The notes under the pieces were generated by a model. The model made no database searches, was not told the DNA's origin, and worked only from the letters and a program-made list of their open reading frames with translations. This document shows, piece by piece, positions 1 through 3,382 of a DNA stretch of 6,295 bases. The translations under genes and the position numbers were made by a program. How positions within the stretch are numbered: the first letter of the stretch is position 1; each line of letters starts with the position of its first letter. Source of the DNA: a virus (taxonomy: Duplodnaviria; Heunggongvirae; Uroviricota; Caudoviricetes); the IMG/VR virus record IMGVR_UViG_3300029249_000134, positions 1 to 6,295 of that record; one strand, given 5' to 3'.

Positions 1-1685
1 ACCAGTTGCTGCGCCTCTGTCTGCGAAAAAATCTCCGGATCATCAGGAAAACGGATGGCATACGACGTGGCTTCATCCGCAGGCGTGGGATCGGCTTTCA
101 TACGGGCATAGAGAATTTCTTTTGCGGTGTCCGTTCCCACTTCACACAGATACACGCCCCGCTGATTGCGGGTTTTTGGCATGGTGATCACCGGCTTGCC
201 ATAGACAGATGCGCCTTTTACCGGCAGCACCCGGAAAACACCGTGTTTTTTTGATCTCTGATAAACAATTTCACCATCGATCCCCCCGGTGTCCCAGCAG
301 ACACGGGAAATAGTCATTTCGGTGCCATCCGCATGGCGGTATTTTTTGTTGATCGCCGCATCCACACGTAACAGCGTCTCTTCCTCATCAGGACGCCCCA
401 TAATGATGATTTTATCCACCAGAAAGGCTTCCTCTCCCAGAGCCCATCCCCAGACATACATCTCAAAACGGTTTCGCTGCGAGTCAATGCCCGCCGTCAG
501 ATAAACCACCCGGGCAGGCACCGCCGCCGTGTAACGCACCACCTTATCCATCAGTACCTGGTGATCGAGTTTTTCGCCCACGGCCTCTTCCCAGGTCTCG
601 CCCAGCGTGGTGTTCACAAAGGTTTTCAGGCCGTTGGGATCTTTCAGTGCATCCAGCCAGTCATAGACAATCTGTACCCAGGTGGTGAACGGACTGTACG
701 CCGTCCAGATATGGAACGTGATGGAGCGCGGCGGCGGAATTTCATCACCCCGGGCGCTGAAAAACGTCAGACCGTCACGGGTCCACATGCCCGTGTTTTC
801 ACAGATCCACCGCCCGTTACTCTGGTCAAGCTCAGACTGATGGATCACACAGCCATGATGCTCACAAAGGTAGAAAACACTTTCTGGCTTATTCTTCTCC
901 CACTTAAGACCGAAAGGCGAGGCATCATCGCCAAATTTCAGATACTGCTCCTCCCCACAGTGCGGACAGGGCACATAAAAACGCATGAAGTGTGCCGACT
1001 CGTTAGCGGCTTTTTCGATCTGGCAGGTGCCTTTGATTTTAGGCGTCGAGCCGCGAATGGATTTTGGCCACACCGACCCCTCAATACGCTTATCCCCCAG
1101 CAGGGTTGGCGAGCCCTCTTTTTCGACATCCGGCTCGAACGAGGAAAGTTCGTCATAGCAGACCACGTCCACGGATTTTTCACGGTAGTTTTTGGCGGCA
1201 GCGCCGCCCAGGCACCAGAAACCGACGCCCGATGAAAAGCGTTTCAGCGTGAGAGTATTGTCACGATGTTTACGACCCAGCCATGGGGAAAGGTCTTTCA
1301 GGCATGGCACGTTCCGAATCGTCGCCTCCACGTGAGACTTCATAAAATCTTCAGCGGCAGAATCCGTGGGCTGAAAAAGCAGACTGTTTCGGGATTTATG
1401 CTCAATAAAATACCCGACCACCCCCAGCAACATCTTTGTATAGCCAACACGGGCAGATTTAATCAGGTTAACCGTGCGAACCTGGTCGTTACCCATACAG
1501 TTCATAATGGCGATCTGGAATGGCAGCGTTTTCCATTCTCCCTCACCATATGAAGATTCTTTAGGCAGATAATAATTTTGATCAGCCCATTCAACTGCCG
1601 TCATTGGTACAACCCTGACCAGAGGCTGCAGCGCAACCGAAACGGCAGCCATCATATTATTCAGTTGTTGCTCTGATATATTCAT
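1..1685 (-). CDS. A: Terminase large subunit (lambda gpA-like), partial; C-terminal ~80 residues lie beyond the window start
   Basis: Manual minus-strand translation from ATG at 1685 gives MNISEQQLNNMMAAVSVALQPLVRVVPMTAVEWADQNYYLPKESSYGEGEWKTLPFQIAIMN..., then ...KRFSSGVGFWCLGGAAAKNYREKSVDVVCYDELSSFEPD... and ...YVPCPHCGEEQYLKFGD..., ending at the window edge with ...AIRFPDDPEIFSQTEAQQL. Frame is open across all 1685 nt and matches remembered lambda gpA (MNIS start, AVEWAD, C-terminal FPNNPDIFDLTEAQQL). Start overlaps the Nu1-like gene by 29 nt, as in lambda. Not in the ORF track because it has no in-window stop. Confidence 0.93.
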   Translation of the reverse strand, partial: MNISEQQLNNMMAAVSVALQPLVRVVPMTAVEWADQNYYLPKESSYGEGEWKTLPFQIAIMNCMGNDQVRTVNLIKSARVGYTKMLLGVVGYFIEHKSRNSLLFQPTDSAAEDFMKSHVEATIRNVPCLKDLSPWLGRKHRDNTLTLKRFSSGVGFWCLGGAAAKNYREKSVDVVCYDELSSFEPDVEKEGSPTLLGDKRIEGSVWPKSIRGSTPKIKGTCQIEKAANESAHFMRFYVPCPHCGEEQYLKFGDDASPFGLKWEKNKPESVFYLCEHHGCVIHQSELDQSNGRWICENTGMWTRDGLTFFSARGDEIPPPRSITFHIWTAYSPFTTWVQIVYDWLDALKDPNGLKTFVNTTLGETWEEAVGEKLDHQVLMDKVVRYTAAVPARVVYLTAGIDSQRNRFEMYVWGWALGEEAFLVDKIIIMGRPDEEETLLRVDAAINKKYRHADGTEMTISRVCWDTGGIDGEIVYQRSKKHGVFRVLPVKGASVYGKPVITMPKTRNQRGVYLCEVGTDTAKEILYARMKADPTPADEATSYAIRFPDDPEIFSQTEAQQL

Positions 1686-2166
1686 CGAGTAAATCCGGTA
1701 ATTTATCCCCTGCCCGCGCACACTGATTTGCCCCCTTCGCAATAAGGGTTTTCAGATGGTCAAGATGGCGCGGTGTTAAATCAGGAAACTGTCGCTGCAT
1801 GGATAAAGGGATGGAATCAAGCGTACTGGATAACGCCATTGCCAGCTTACTGAGGGCAAAAATACAGAACCCGGTGTCAATAAGTTTTCCTTTTGACACC
1901 TCATTTTTTAACTGCTGTGTAACAGCCTGTTCTGCTGTCAGTTCCCATCTGGCAATAAGCAATTTCTCCTCATAGTCGTCTTCGCTATCGCCATCAGGCA
2001 CATCGTTTTTACTTCTCCTCAGATACGATATGTAAAAATCGCGCCAGGCATCCAGATCCAGTTGCCCTCGCTTATTCGATATCGGGGCACCCGGCAATTT
2101 CTGCAATCTGCGAAGCTGGCGATCGGTCAGACTTAAATGCCTGGCAACTTCAGTCTGCGTAGCCAC
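1657..2166 (-). CDS. nu1: Terminase small subunit (Nu1-like); N-terminal DNA-binding domain diverged from lambda, C-terminal half lambda-like
   Basis: 169-aa ORF from the track. C-terminal half (…DTGFCIFALSKLAMALSSTLDSIPLSMQRQFPDLTPRHLDHLK…LPDLLDEYI) aligns by eye with lambda Nu1 (…ETAFCTFVLSRIAGEIASILDGLPLSVQRRFPELENRHVDFLK…IPGLLSEYI). N-terminus (TQTEVARHLSLTDRQLRRLQ) is HTH-like but unlike lambda. GTG start at 2166 with a TGA in frame immediately upstream and GAGG 6 nt upstream. Confidence 0.88.
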   Translation of the reverse strand: MATQTEVARHLSLTDRQLRRLQKLPGAPISNKRGQLDLDAWRDFYISYLRRSKNDVPDGDSEDDYEEKLLIARWELTAEQAVTQQLKNEVSKGKLIDTGFCIFALSKLAMALSSTLDSIPLSMQRQFPDLTPRHLDHLKTLIAKGANQCARAGDKLPDLLDEYIRATTE

Positions 2167-2213: not shown

Positions 2214-2225
2214 CATGTCCGGTTT
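2214..2225 (-). repeat. cosB R1-like element (putative small-terminase binding site), motif AAACCGGACATG on the phage strand; sits inside a 7-6-7 palindrome 2206-2225
   Basis: Plus strand catgtccggttt; one of three copies of the same ~11-12 bp motif between the Nu1-like start and cosN. Function inferred by analogy to lambda R1. Confidence 0.55.
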
Positions 2226-2243
2226 ACATGTCTGTTTTTTGTT

Positions 2244-2255
2244 CATGTCCGGTTC
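2244..2255 (-). repeat. cosB R2-like element, same orientation as the R1-like copy
   Basis: Plus strand catgtccggttc, 30 bp from the R1-like copy. Confidence 0.55.
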
Positions 2256-2300
2256 ACAGAAGACCTGTTTTTATATTTTTCATATAGTTAACTTGAAGAG

Positions 2301-2312
2301 AAACCGGACATG
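2301..2312 (+). repeat. cosB R3-like element, inverted relative to R1/R2-like copies and closest to cosN
   Basis: Plus strand aaaccggacatg. Separated from the R2-like copy by an A/T-tract spacer (2256-2300, tttttatatttttcatatag) where lambda has the IHF site I1. The inverted R3 / spacer / R2 / R1 layout mirrors lambda cosB. Confidence 0.55.
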
Positions 2313-2349: not shown

Positions 2350-2361
2350 AGGTCGCCGCCC
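2350..2361. other. cosN cohesive-end site (12-nt overhang GGGCGGCGACCT on the minus strand), within a 45-bp block (2317-2361) identical to the lambda left end
   Basis: Reverse complement of 2317-2361 is GGGCGGCGACCTCGCGGGTTTTCGCTATTTATGAAAATTTTCCGG, matching the lambda genome start from memory. The adjacent 2362-2370 (reverse complement ccggttacg) resembles the lambda right-end terminus. Lies ~185 bp upstream of the Nu1-like start, as in lambda. Confidence 0.85.
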
Positions 2362-2396
2362 CGTAACCGGTCGGATCGCCGGAAAGGACCCACGAA

Positions 2397-2413
2397 ATGA
2401 TAATGATTATCAT
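2397..2413. promoter_or_regulatory. Perfect 8-1-8 palindrome ATGATAATgATTATCAT (Fur-box-like operator candidate) abutting a TATATA -10-like hexamer (2415-2420)
   Basis: Read directly. 2399-2413 GATAATGATTATCAT matches 14 of the first 15 positions of the Fur consensus GATAATGATAATCATTATC. Lies ~36 bp beyond cosN and ~150 bp upstream of the plus-strand ORF at 2568. Confidence 0.3.
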
Positions 2414-2567
2414 CTATATAAGGTTTATCACAACATGTGTGTACGCCATCAAACCACGAGAAATAATCAATTATGACGCAGGTATCGTATTAATTGATCT
2501 GCGTCAAATTAACGTAAAAGCAACTTCAGATAATACAAATCAGCAACACTGAATATGGGGAAACATT

Positions 2568-2753
2568 ATGTCATCAAAGAACAGAACCCGCAGAACAACA
2601 ACCCGCAACATCCGATTTCCAAACCAGATGATTGAACAAATTAACATCGCTCTTGATCTGAAAGGTTCAGGAAACTTTTCAGCGTGGGTTATTGAAGCCT
2701 GCAGAAGAAGGCTGTCAACAGAGAGTTCGGGTATGAATTACATAATTAAGTAA
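2568..2753 (+). CDS. Small (61 aa) basic protein, ribbon-helix-helix-like putative DNA-binding protein
   Basis: ATG at 2568 preceded by GGGGAAA with 7-nt spacing. Sequence MSSKNRTRRTTTRNIRFPNQMIEQINIALDLKGSGNFSAWVIEACRRRL has a basic N-terminal tail, a short strand (RNIRFP) and two helices, consistent with an Arc/MetJ/CopG-type fold. Opposite strand to the Nu1-like gene. Positionally reminiscent of ylcI/ynfO next to nohD/nohA in E. coli K-12 cryptic prophages, but the sequence match is not verified. Confidence 0.6.
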   Translation: MSSKNRTRRTTTRNIRFPNQMIEQINIALDLKGSGNFSAWVIEACRRRLSTESSGMNYIIK

Positions 2754-3382
2754 CATGGTGTTCACAGAACACGCAGTTACCGGACACATCAGTTTTCCAT
2801 TCGCTCCCCGGCAGTACAGGCTTCCCCTCTGACGGGATAGCCTGAAAAAATAACACAGAAAATTATTTGTTATAATTAATATAACTTACTCAAAAAAAAG
2901 CGACGAGAAAATCAGCATCAACGAACAATAAGCGCCAATACGTGATAACAAATGGCAGCCATATTTATCTGCAGTATAAGCAATGGACAGGATAACCACA
3001 CCAGAAACCGTCAGCATAAAATCCATTTGAACTTCCCCGGACAAAATCGACTCATCTAAAGATTTACAGCTCTTTTTATTATCAATATGTTAAAAGTAAA
3101 ATAAACAGATGTTCAATAACACGAATACAAAAACGTGCTGAAATTCAATGAATCCATTTCTGTGTCATCAATTAATAGTGATAAACATCCGGCTTCTTCC
3201 ACCATCGCACCGGACATGCGACTATGAGGGGACAACGCCGCGCTCCGTTAACGCGGTAAACCCCGGTGTGTATCGTTTTTGATTATCCCCGCACACTCGC
3301 ACAGAGGAGTCTCCCGGTCGGGCTGCGGTCTCTGTTAATGCGGGAATACGGCGACAATACCGCGCATGGATAATAAGGTCGC

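What the first reader, a model, noticed from the sequence alone, without database searches (positions are those of the whole stretch)
2397..2420. Fur-box-like perfect palindrome overlapping a -10-like hexamer just beyond cosN
ATGATAATgATTATCAT is a perfect 8-1-8 palindrome built from GATAAT-type hexamers and is followed directly by TATATA. This operator-over-promoter layout is typical of Fur-repressed promoters, and an iron-regulated promoter near the packaging site would be unusual. It could drive the plus-strand small ORF at 2568 or an unannotated small RNA. Alternatively it may be a cosQ-proximal architectural site (IHF-like) or the operator of another regulator.
Basis: partly seen in the sequence, partly recalled or inferred. 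Interest (0 to 1): 0.45.

Follow-up and report, generated by a model that had tools for sequence, protein, structure and literature searches.

The report
Host Fur box beside phage cosQ
The palindrome is a genuine binding site for the host iron sensor Fur, matching a site already shown to bind Fur in E. coli K-12 cryptic prophages, and it sits next to the DNA-packaging signal cosQ in most lambda-like phages, including lambda itself, for a reason still unknown.

Summary
ATGATAATgATTATCAT at 2397-2413 is a perfect 8-1-8 palindrome, 6 bp from cosQ (2385-2391) and 36-50 nt from the cohesive end (2350-2361). It matches the Fur 7-1-7 motif exactly and scores 25.5 bits on a matrix I built from 12 validated K-12 Fur sites (their range 18.4-27.9; 0 of 5 million random positions reach it).

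It is the orthologue of the nohA (Qin) and nohB (DLP12) Fur sites. The nohA site was selected in vivo and gel-shifted by Fur; the nohB site is a prediction. A diverged copy in a CFT073 prophage lies under a Fur ChIP-exo peak, and genes on both sides rise in a fur deletion. Fur binding is therefore essentially established by homology.

The "operator over a TATATA promoter driving ylcI or a small RNA" reading is not supported. TATATA lies in a lineage-specific 7-bp insertion, no promoter scores above chance, and no terminator or RNA family is present. The box travels with cosQ, not with ylcI: 24 of 33 independent lambda-type cos contexts have it 3-8 bp from cosQ, next to unrelated genes, and its arms diverge more slowly than the adjacent spacer. 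This linkage, present in phage lambda at 48452-48466, was not described in the literature I could search. What the site regulates in this prophage is unresolved.

The parts
2396..2414 (.). Fur box. 19-bp site AATGATAATGATTATCATC; core 7-1-7 at 2398-2412; full 8-1-8 palindrome at 2397-2413.
   Evidence: Exact 7-1-7 match. 25.5 bits on an independent matrix. Orthologous to the Fur-binding nohA site and the predicted nohB site.
2402..2420 (.). Weak second Fur register shifted by +6 (7.5 bits). It overlaps the TATATA hexamer at 2415-2420, which lies in a lineage-specific 7-bp insertion.
   Evidence: Matrix scan. Chen et al. report a +6 overlapping site at nohA. The insertion is seen in alignment A1.
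2385..2391 (-). cosQ (GGGTCCT on the minus strand), the packaging-termination signal, 6 bp from the box.
   Evidence: Same position as lambda 48473-48479. The 7-bp definition of cosQ is from Wieczorek & Feiss 2001, recalled from memory; the paper is not held.
2350..2361 (-). cosN cohesive-end 12-mer (GGGCGGCGACCT on the minus strand). The right chromosome end would be at about 2362.
   Evidence: alignment with lambda, Qin and DLP12.
2214..2312 (-). cosB region with three R-type repeats CATGTCCGGTT (2214-2224, 2244-2254, and inverted at 2302-2312).
1657..2166 (-). Terminase small subunit (Nu1 family). Its GTG start is 239 bp from the box centre.
   Evidence: Pfam Phage_Nu1, E = 1e-18. RefSeq annotation of the 99.8%-identical locus.
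1..1685 (-). Terminase large subunit, N-terminal part, cut by the window edge.
   Evidence: Annotation of L156 mapped onto the window; 561-aa open frame.
2568..2753 (+). YlcI/YnfO-family (DUF3950) ORF of 61 aa. Its start is 163 bp from the box centre and it is transcribed away from cos.
   Evidence: Pfam DUF3950, E = 9e-19. RefSeq annotation.

Best explanation
The palindrome is a high-affinity operator for the host iron sensor Fur (Fur-Fe2+). It is orthologous to the nohA and nohB Fur sites of the E. coli K-12 cryptic prophages Qin and DLP12. It belongs to a conserved Fur box that flanks cosQ in most lambda-type cos regions.

In iron-replete cells Fur dimers occupy the 7-1-7 repeat, with a weaker register 6 bp away. 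This covers the AT-rich box, whose arms contain -10-like hexamers (GATAAT, TATCAT) in both directions. The result is that weak sigma-70 transcription starting at the cos-proximal DNA of the resident prophage is held down: leftward into ylcI and other right-end cargo, and rightward across cos into the terminase and head genes. When iron is scarce Fur leaves and this transcription rises.

Shown: the sequence match, the orthology, Fur binding of orthologues in vitro and in vivo, derepression on both sides in CFT073, and purifying selection on the box. Inferred: that Fur binds this exact copy, and that repression rather than another output is the consequence in this prophage. I put Fur binding at about 0.9 and the repressor-of-prophage-transcription output at about 0.5.
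For: Sequence:
- Exact match to TGATAATnATTATCA.
- 25.5 bits on a matrix built from 12 experimentally supported K-12 sites, excluding nohA and nohB. Their leave-one-out range is 18.4-27.9, and 0 of 5 million random positions reach 25.5.

Orthology:
- The window aligns through cosN, cosQ and the box with Qin and DLP12.
- Chen et al.'s coordinates for the nohA site (1634624, -233) and nohB site (579824) fall exactly on the palindrome centres.

Binding:
- The nohA oligo is gel-shifted by 150 nM Fur, and the fragment was selected in vivo (PMC2189734).
- A ChIP-seq summit at 1634625 lies on the site (PMC3688515).
- CFT073 ChIP-exo peak P53 (1424699-1424711, iron-replete) lies on the cos-adjacent box GTGATAATTATTCTCG.

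Output: in CFT073 the flanking genes C_RS26755 (+2.95), C_RS07340 (+2.33) and C_RS07370 (+2.13 log2) rise in the fur deletion.

Selection:
- 24 of 33 independent contexts carry the box.
- 30 of 46 contexts score at least 15 bits next to cosQ, against 1 of 1304 control windows.
- The arms diverge at 0.165, the spacer at 0.336 and the upstream flank at 0.70, while the centre base is free at 0.515.
- 124 of 148 strong hits in 1.33 Mb of lambdoid loci lie at cosQ.
Against: - No promoter is detectable above chance in either direction, and no conserved -35 accompanies the box across contexts (7.73 against 7.65 +/- 0.14 for shuffled flanks).
- In K-12 the flanking genes are not derepressed in fur deletions. 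In MG1655 nohA, ydfO and ybcV are unchanged or silent. In W3110 ynfO, ydfO, ylcI, ybcW and ybcV go down.
- MG1655 and W3110 ChIP-exo lists have no peak at Qin or DLP12.
- The CFT073 derepression could be indirect. C_RS07370 is the fifth gene of the head operon, and a fur deletion can trigger SOS and prophage induction.
- In several contexts there is no leftward gene at all. A long rightward ORF ends at the box, so a cargo-promoter role cannot explain the conservation.
- The constant 3-8 bp spacing to cosQ is not needed for an operator.
Confidence: 0.5

Rival explanations
1. The Fur box is an accessory sub-site of the lambda-type cos itself. Fur bound 3-8 bp upstream of cosQ acts on DNA handling rather than transcription. 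For example, it could be a protein speed bump that slows the translocating terminase just before cosQ and so improves packaging termination. Or it could be a protein cap on the right chromosome end, which sits 36-50 nt away and, from memory, enters the cell first.
For: - The box travels with cosQ, not with any gene: 24 of 33 independent contexts, always 3-8 bp from cosQ.
- It is under purifying selection while the upstream DNA is unrelated and the cosQ-cosN spacer drifts.
- It is present where no leftward gene exists.
- No conserved promoter accompanies it.
- It is essentially the only strong Fur site in these phages.
- From memory of Feiss-lab work, slow-translocating terminase or portal mutants suppress cosQ defects, so kinetics at cosQ matter.
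Against: - 8 of 33 contexts lack the box yet have intact cosQ and cosN.
- fur is not among the 57 host genes needed for lambda plaque formation (PMC2900299).
- From memory, saturation mutagenesis defined cosQ as only 7 bp.
- The variable 3-8 bp spacing argues against a precise protein-protein geometry.
- There is no direct evidence of any packaging phenotype.
Confidence: 0.15
2. Fur binds, but nothing useful follows. The site is a regulatory dead end or decoy that persists because it is physically welded to the essential cosQ-cosN module and is exchanged together with it.
For: - K-12 fur deletions show no derepression of the flanking genes.
- No ChIP-exo peak is listed in MG1655 or W3110.
- A quarter of contexts have lost the box without losing cos.
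- Fur is known to bind many sites without a transcriptional effect, for example the intragenic sites that shift in Chen et al..
Against: - The arms diverge half as fast as the neighbouring spacer while the centre base varies freely.
- 18 contexts have at most 1 mismatch where about 4 are expected at the spacer's rate, and these sit on 15 different spacer haplotypes.
- Mismatch counts are bimodal (0-3 or 6-9, none at 4-5), which means the box is either kept or replaced, not decaying.
Confidence: 0.15
3. Fur acts positively here. By occupying the AT-rich box it counteracts H-NS silencing of the prophage right-end region, as described for ftnA. In that case ylcI and its neighbours would be expressed when iron is plentiful and silenced without Fur.
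For: - In W3110 ynfO (-5.1), ydfO (-2.05, p = 2e-5), ylcI (-3.9), ybcW (-5.3) and ybcV (-3.7, p = 8e-5) all fall in the fur deletion.
- borD falls about 2-fold in both MG1655 and W3110.
- ylcI is transcribed in most MG1655 RNA-seq samples.
Against: - Read counts are very low.
- The whole DLP12 region, including appY, falls in W3110, which suggests an indirect, region-wide or growth-state effect.
- MG1655 shows no such change for ydfO or ybcV.
- CFT073 shows the opposite sign.
- H-NS occupancy was not examined.
Confidence: 0.08
4. The palindrome is the operator of another dimeric regulator (for example the adjacent DUF3950/YlcI protein, which looks like a ribbon-helix-helix protein), or an IHF-type architectural site, and only resembles a Fur box.
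For: The site is palindromic and lies upstream of ylcI. YlcI has an RHH-like sequence pattern (my reading; Pfam reports only DUF3950).
Against: - The box is conserved in many contexts that have no ylcI.
- Its consensus across phages equals the consensus of chromosomal Fur sites, AATGATAATCATTATCATT.
- Fur binding of the orthologues is experimental.
- There is no IHF core motif within hundreds of bp.
- Other inverted repeats in the ylcI leader (2466-2506) are better candidates for a YlcI operator.
Confidence: 0.03

Closest known systems
Fur sites upstream of nohA (Qin) and nohB/nohD (DLP12) in E. coli K-12 (Vassinova & Kozyrev 2000; Chen et al. 2007, PMC2189734)
   Same: Orthologous DNA with the same position relative to cosQ, cosN, the Nu1 homologue and ylcI/ynfO. 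The 7-1-7 core is the same. Every base of the window's 19-mer occurs in one or the other K-12 copy.
   Different: - The window combines Qin's centre G with DLP12's flanking A, giving an 8-1-8 palindrome.
- A 7-bp insertion follows the box.
- cosB and the terminase small subunit are of a different specificity type.
- The prophage here looks intact rather than cryptic.
- The K-12 literature files the site under nohA and does not mention cos.
CFT073 prophage Fur ChIP-exo peak P53 with Fur-repressed flanking genes (Fur pan-regulon study, PMC10164565)
   Same: A Fur box 5 bp from cosQ of a lambda-type cos. It is occupied in vivo when iron is replete.
   Different: The box has 2 mismatches (20.7 bits). 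The neighbour is an unrelated small secreted-protein gene instead of ylcI. Expression data exist there but not for this window's prophage.
cosQ of phage lambda (7-bp packaging-termination site, lambda 48473-48479)
   Same: It is the immediate neighbour. The box shares cosQ's phylogenetic distribution to a large extent and sits at a near-constant distance from it.
   Different: cosQ is invariant and essential. The box is absent from about a quarter of contexts, has no known packaging role, and is recognised by a host protein.
Fur control of prophage cargo such as the stx1 promoter of Stx1 phages (from memory: Calderwood & Mekalanos 1987)
   Same: Host Fur reads iron status and controls a gene carried by a lambdoid prophage.
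   Different: The stx1 operator overlaps a defined cargo promoter inside the late region. Here no promoter is defined, and the site is tied to the packaging signal rather than to a particular cargo gene.
Fur-H-NS antagonism at ftnA (from memory: Nandal et al. 2010)
   Same: This could explain the decrease of ylcI, ynfO and neighbours in the W3110 fur deletion.
   Different: ftnA has several upstream Fur sites and documented H-NS binding. Neither was shown here.

Membership tests
Fur box (E. coli Fur-Fe2+ operator) | Inverted 7-1-7 repeat TGATAATnATTATCA | tested here: met
   Exact match at 2398-2412. Matches with up to 2 mismatches are expected 0.04 times per window.
Fur box (E. coli Fur-Fe2+ operator) | High score on a weight matrix built from experimentally verified Fur sites | tested here: met
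   25.5 bits against 18.4-27.9 for 12 true sites scored leave-one-out. 0 of 5,000,000 random positions reach it. The next best site in the window scores 7.5 bits.
Fur box (E. coli Fur-Fe2+ operator) | Match to the classical 19-bp consensus GATAATGATAATCATTATC | tested here: inconclusive
   More than 3 mismatches in the window (15/19 by eye). The consensus of the phage boxes matches 17/19.
Fur box (E. coli Fur-Fe2+ operator) | Direct binding of Fur (gel shift, footprint or ChIP) | not testable with these tools
   Shown for orthologues only: nohA gel shift and in vivo selection, and the CFT073 ChIP-exo peak on the box. MG1655 and W3110 ChIP-exo lists have no peak at these sites.
Fur box (E. coli Fur-Fe2+ operator) | Overlaps the -35/-10 of a promoter whose activity it controls | tested here: inconclusive
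   There is one sigma-70-like match (TTGTGA-16-GATAAT, minus strand, 2433-2406), but shuffles give 1.6 matches on average. No -35 is conserved across contexts.
Fur box (E. coli Fur-Fe2+ operator) | Iron- or Fur-dependent expression of adjacent genes | not testable with these tools
   The literature is mixed: derepression in CFT073, no change in MG1655, and a decrease in W3110.
Sub-site of the lambda-type cos (like cosQ, cosN, cosB) | Fixed position relative to cosN and cosQ across related phages | tested here: met
   The box ends 3-8 bp from cosQ in every context that has it.
Sub-site of the lambda-type cos (like cosQ, cosN, cosB) | Present in all functional cos sites of the group | tested here: not met
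   8 of 33 independent contexts lack it, and 1 is mixed.
Sub-site of the lambda-type cos (like cosQ, cosN, cosB) | Required for or contributing to packaging | not testable with these tools
   Indirect evidence against an essential role: fur is not a lambda host-dependency gene. The cosQ papers could not be read.
IHF binding site | Core consensus WATCAANNNNTTR | tested here: not met
   The only matches in the window are at 3080 and 5137.
Small RNA gene | Own promoter plus terminator, a known RNA family, or significant structure | tested here: not met
   No Rfam match with E below 0.6. No plus-strand terminator in 2150-2900. Leader fold z = -0.62.

The most novel reading that the evidence does not exclude
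The Fur box is a functional fourth sub-site of lambda-type cos. Through it the host iron sensor Fur would take part in phage DNA handling, either by slowing terminase just before cosQ to aid packaging termination, or by binding the leading (right) chromosome end after injection. This would couple virion production or infection success to host iron status. The evidence that it travels with cosQ, is under selection and has no conserved promoter does not exclude this reading.
Probability: 0.13. Interest if true: 0.78.

Novelty: new member of a known kind. Interest (0 to 1): 0.42.

Why it matters
For this window, the result removes the mystery. The palindrome is a copy of a known Fur site from the K-12 prophages, not a new regulatory invention, and the TATATA promoter idea should be dropped.

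The wider point is that phage lambda itself, and about three quarters of lambda-type cos regions, keep a consensus Fur box a few base pairs from cosQ whatever gene lies beside it. This does not appear in the literature I could search. It poses a cheap, directly testable question for two mature fields: why does a phage preserve a host iron-sensor site at its packaging signal?

The answer could be iron-responsive expression of prophage cargo or terminase genes. It could also be a host-factor contribution to packaging or DNA entry. A practical consequence is that Fur-regulon annotations assigning this site to "nohA" are probably mislabelling a cos-associated element.

Tried and rejected
- Generic palindrome significance was rejected as evidence: 17% of shuffles give an 8-arm palindrome.
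- Full-text searches for Fur with ynfO or ylcI gave mostly noise.
- The cosQ papers (Wieczorek & Feiss 2001; Cue & Feiss 1993) and the Kosturko 1989 IHF footprint paper are not held. The cosQ definition and IHF maps are therefore cited from memory only.
- Supplements of Beauchene 2015 and of the iModulon knowledge base are not held.
- Sakai Fur ChIP-exo peaks in prophages Sp3 and Sp10 turned out to lie inside tape-measure genes, not at cos.
- A conserved -35 for a rightward (terminase-directed) promoter was tested and rejected.
- The only promoter-like hit in the window is within chance.
- A small RNA was rejected.
- An IHF site was rejected.
- A YlcI homologue with a solved structure was not found by sequence. 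The RHH guess for YlcI remains my reading only.
- I tried to use cos sites lacking a downstream terminase as natural satellite controls. The terminator-type cos loci (L042, L152) lack the large terminase subunit nearby but have confusing gene content (capsid genes upstream, partial portal downstream), so I drew no conclusion.
- Fur titration by replicating phage DNA was considered. I judged it unlikely on copy-number grounds: roughly 100-200 sites against thousands of Fur dimers. This estimate is from memory and was not computed.

Full report
**What the window is.** The window is the joined cos region of a lambdoid prophage, read in reverse. It is 99.8% identical to a locus in E. coli 2013C-4465.
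- The minus strand carries the terminase large subunit (1-1685, cut by the window edge) and a Nu1-family small subunit (1657-2166; Pfam E = 1e-18).
- These are preceded by cosB with three CATGTCCGGTT repeats (2214-2312), the cohesive-end 12-mer (2350-2361) and cosQ (2385-2391).
- Beyond cosQ lie the palindrome, a DUF3950 YlcI/YnfO-family ORF on the plus strand (2568-2753), and a lysis cassette on the minus strand.

**The observation.** ATGATAATgATTATCAT at 2397-2413 is a perfect 8-1-8 palindrome. TATATA follows after one base, at 2415-2420.
- As a generic palindrome it is not remarkable: 17% of shuffles contain one as long.
- As a match to a motif defined beforehand it is remarkable. It matches the Fur 7-1-7 unit TGATAATnATTATCA exactly, and matches with up to 2 mismatches are expected only 0.04 times per window.
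- I built a symmetrised 19-bp matrix from 12 experimentally supported K-12 Fur sites: yoeA, gpmA, ryhB, sodA, fecI, fepD-entS, entC, fhuF, fadD, cirA, fhuA and exbB. Centre coordinates came from Chen et al. 2007 Table 4, and nohA and nohB were left out.
- Site 2396-2414 scores 25.5 bits on this matrix. The true sites score 18.4-27.9 when left out in turn. The next best position in the window scores 7.5 bits, and it is the +6 overlapping register. None of 5 million random positions reaches 25.5; the random maximum is 19.9.

**It is a known site.** Chen et al. 2007 (PMC2189734) list Fur-site clusters at nohA and nohB.
- The nohA site scores 22.3 bits at coordinate 1634624, 233 bp upstream of nohA. 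It was gel-shifted by 150 nM Fur, and it lies on one of the fragments selected for Fur binding in vivo by Vassinova & Kozyrev 2000.
- The nohB site scores 25.3 bits at coordinate 579824. It is a prediction only.
- I fetched both K-12 regions and aligned them with the window. The published coordinates fall exactly on the centres of the homologous palindromes in Qin (GTGATAATGATTATCATC) and DLP12 (ATGATAATAATTATCAT).
- A ChIP-seq summit at 1634625 in Myers et al. 2013, obtained with FNR antibody and classed by the authors as a Fur-repressed locus, also sits on the site.

**CFT073 evidence.** In the Fur pan-regulon study (PMC10164565), CFT073 peak P53 (1424699-1424711, iron-replete) lies on GTGATAATTATTCTCG, 5 bp from the cosQ of another lambdoid prophage. 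The flanking genes are in that strain's Fur regulon and rise in the fur deletion: C_RS26755 +2.95, C_RS07340 +2.33 and C_RS07370 +2.13 log2. Fur binding to this element is therefore established for orthologues in vitro and in vivo, and I put it at about 0.9 for this copy.

**What does not hold up.**
- The TATATA hexamer lies in a 7-bp insertion that lambda, Qin and DLP12 lack, and it has no usable -35.
- The only sigma-70-like match in 2150-2900 is on the minus strand (TTGTGA-16-GATAAT, 2433-2406). One match is fewer than the 1.6 expected from shuffles.
- No Rfam family matches, there is no plus-strand terminator, and the 157-nt leader folds no better than shuffles (z = -0.62). A small RNA is therefore unsupported.
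- There is no IHF core motif nearby.

**The box travels with cosQ, not with ylcI.** I scanned one genome per species, and the viral contig collection, for cosQ(GGGTCCTTTCC)-N17-cosN(CGGGGCGGCG). This gave about 150 cos sites.
- Clustering the DNA upstream of the box by 9-mer content gives 33 independent contexts. Of these, 24 have a match with at most 3 mismatches ending 3-8 bp from cosQ, 8 have none and 1 is mixed. A looser ungapped clustering gave 33 of 46.
- In control DNA from the same loci, such matches occur at 2.5e-4 per position.
- With the independent matrix, 30 of 46 contexts score at least 15 bits next to cosQ, against 1 of 1304 control windows.
- In 1.33 Mb of these loci, 124 of 148 hits of at least 15 bits lie within 60 bp of cosQ.
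- The consensus of the phage boxes contains AATGATAATCATTATCATT, which is identical to the consensus of the chromosomal Fur matrix.
- The neighbouring genes differ between contexts:
  - ylcI, leftward, in the lambda, DLP12 and window type.
  - An unrelated small secreted-protein gene in the CFT073 type.
  - Long rightward ORFs, some tail-tip- or fn3-like, whose stop codon lies 14-62 bp from cosQ in Kluyvera, Buttiauxella, Klebsiella and other contexts.
- The phage lambda reference has the perfect box at 48452-48466, 6 bp from cosQ (48473-48479). Nothing is annotated there.

**Selection.** Among box-bearing contexts, the 14 specified positions differ pairwise at 0.165. The cosQ-cosN spacer differs at 0.336, the flank further upstream at 0.70, and the unspecified centre base at 0.515.
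- At the spacer's rate about 4 contexts should have at most 1 mismatch. Eighteen do, and they sit on 15 different spacer haplotypes.
- Mismatch counts are bimodal (0-3 or 6-9), so the box is either kept or replaced outright.
- This is the signature of a dimer-recognised operator under purifying selection. The caveats are that contexts are not fully independent and that the spacer may itself be partly constrained.

**What it does.** This is the weak part.
- For a repressor-operator role: there is derepression on both sides in CFT073, and the box supplies -10-like hexamers in both directions.
- Against it:
  - No -35 is conserved across contexts (7.73 against 7.65 +/- 0.14 for shuffled flanks).
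  - In MG1655 the fur deletion leaves nohA, ydfO and ybcV unchanged. In W3110 ynfO, ydfO, ylcI, ybcW and ybcV fall rather than rise.
  - MG1655 and W3110 ChIP-exo lists have no peak at these sites, possibly because of repeat mapping.
  - C_RS07370 is the head protease, five genes downstream of cos, so its rise in CFT073 may reflect SOS-driven induction in the fur mutant.
- ylcI is at least transcribed in MG1655.
- A packaging-linked role would explain the tie to cosQ. However, the box is absent from a quarter of contexts, and fur is not among the 57 host genes needed for lambda plaques (PMC2900299). From memory, cosQ was defined as only 7 bp; I could not read those papers.
- I therefore commit to the following: a genuine Fur operator that most likely damps cos-proximal prophage transcription when iron is replete (about 0.5). 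The rivals are a cos-accessory role (0.15), a bound but functionless hitchhiker (0.15), anti-H-NS activation (0.08) and another regulator (0.03).

**Novelty.** The site is an orthologue of a published Fur site, so for this window it is a new member of a known kind. A search for Fur box or Fur binding site together with cos site, cohesive end or lambdoid found no paper that links them. The systematic cosQ linkage, including in lambda itself, therefore appears undescribed in the library available to me. That library omits most subscription journals.

Noticed in passing
L155 (NC_001416.1), lambda 48109-48303, complement strand: The phage lambda RefSeq record has an unannotated 64-aa YlcI/DUF3950-like ORF (MSTKNRTRRTTTRNIRFPNQMIEQINIALEQKGSGNFSAWVIEACRRRL...) between lambdap79 and the right end.
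   Followed up: partly
window 2214-2224, 2244-2254, 2302-2312: cosB carries three CATGTCCGGTT repeats, two direct and one inverted. They are unlike lambda's R sequences, so this phage shares cosQ, cosN and the Fur box with lambda but probably has a different packaging-initiation specificity.
   Followed up: partly
window 2466-2506: There are interleaved inverted repeats (ATCAATTATGACG / CGTATTAATTGAT and TGACGCAG / CTGCGTCA) in the ylcI leader, which is highly conserved between the window, Qin and DLP12. They may be an operator for the YlcI protein or a leader hairpin. The whole-leader fold is not significant (z = -0.62).
   Followed up: partly
L042 4120-4165; the same in L044, L137, L152 (10 loci in all): One family of lambda-type cos sites has a rightward intrinsic terminator (GGCCGGAGAAATCCGGCTTTTTTT) abutting cosQ, in the slot where other phages have the Fur box. 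L042 and L152 have no large terminase gene within 3 kb downstream, and their gene content is odd (capsid genes before cos, partial portal after).
   Followed up: partly
L155 position 540 (lambda about 46839-46857) and L002 position 481 (DLP12): A 14.7-bit Fur-like site, ATTGTTAATATTTATTAAT, lies about 90 bp upstream of bor/borD. In published RNA-seq, borD is about 2-fold lower in fur deletions of MG1655 (p = 5e-21) and W3110.
   Followed up: no
L168 4655-4981 (CFT073 C_RS07335); L050 and L093, about 0.5 kb from cosQ: Genes for TonB-family C-terminal-domain proteins sit in the right-end cargo region close to cos in several of these prophages. This is iron-uptake-related cargo near the Fur box, but it is transcribed toward cos and has no strong Fur site of its own.
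   Followed up: partly
K-12 DLP12 and Qin regions (L001, L002), published RNA-seq: In the W3110 fur deletion, the whole right-end region of DLP12 and Qin falls: ynfO, ydfO, ylcI, ybcW, ybcV, nohD, and also appY (-4.1 log2). In MG1655 these genes are silent in both strains. A strain-specific, region-wide effect is unexplained.
   Followed up: no
L169 and L170 (O157:H7 Sakai prophages Sp3 and Sp10): Published Fur ChIP-exo peaks P27 and P60 in Sakai fall inside tail tape-measure genes, not at cos. No peak was found listed at any Sakai cos, despite its many lambdoid prophages.
   Followed up: partly
window 2397-2552, plus strand: A 51-aa ORF (MIMIIIYIRF...) starts inside the palindrome. In lambda the corresponding frame stops after about 20 codons, so it is almost certainly not a gene.
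   Followed up: yes
L004, L006, L007, L014, L015, L018, L021, L023, L027: Several 'genomes' of unrelated taxa (Shewanella, Oceanobacillus, Chromatiales, Raphidiopsis and others) contain sequence identical to lambda cos on short, low-coverage contigs. This is most likely lambda spike-in or vector contamination in public assemblies.
   Followed up: no
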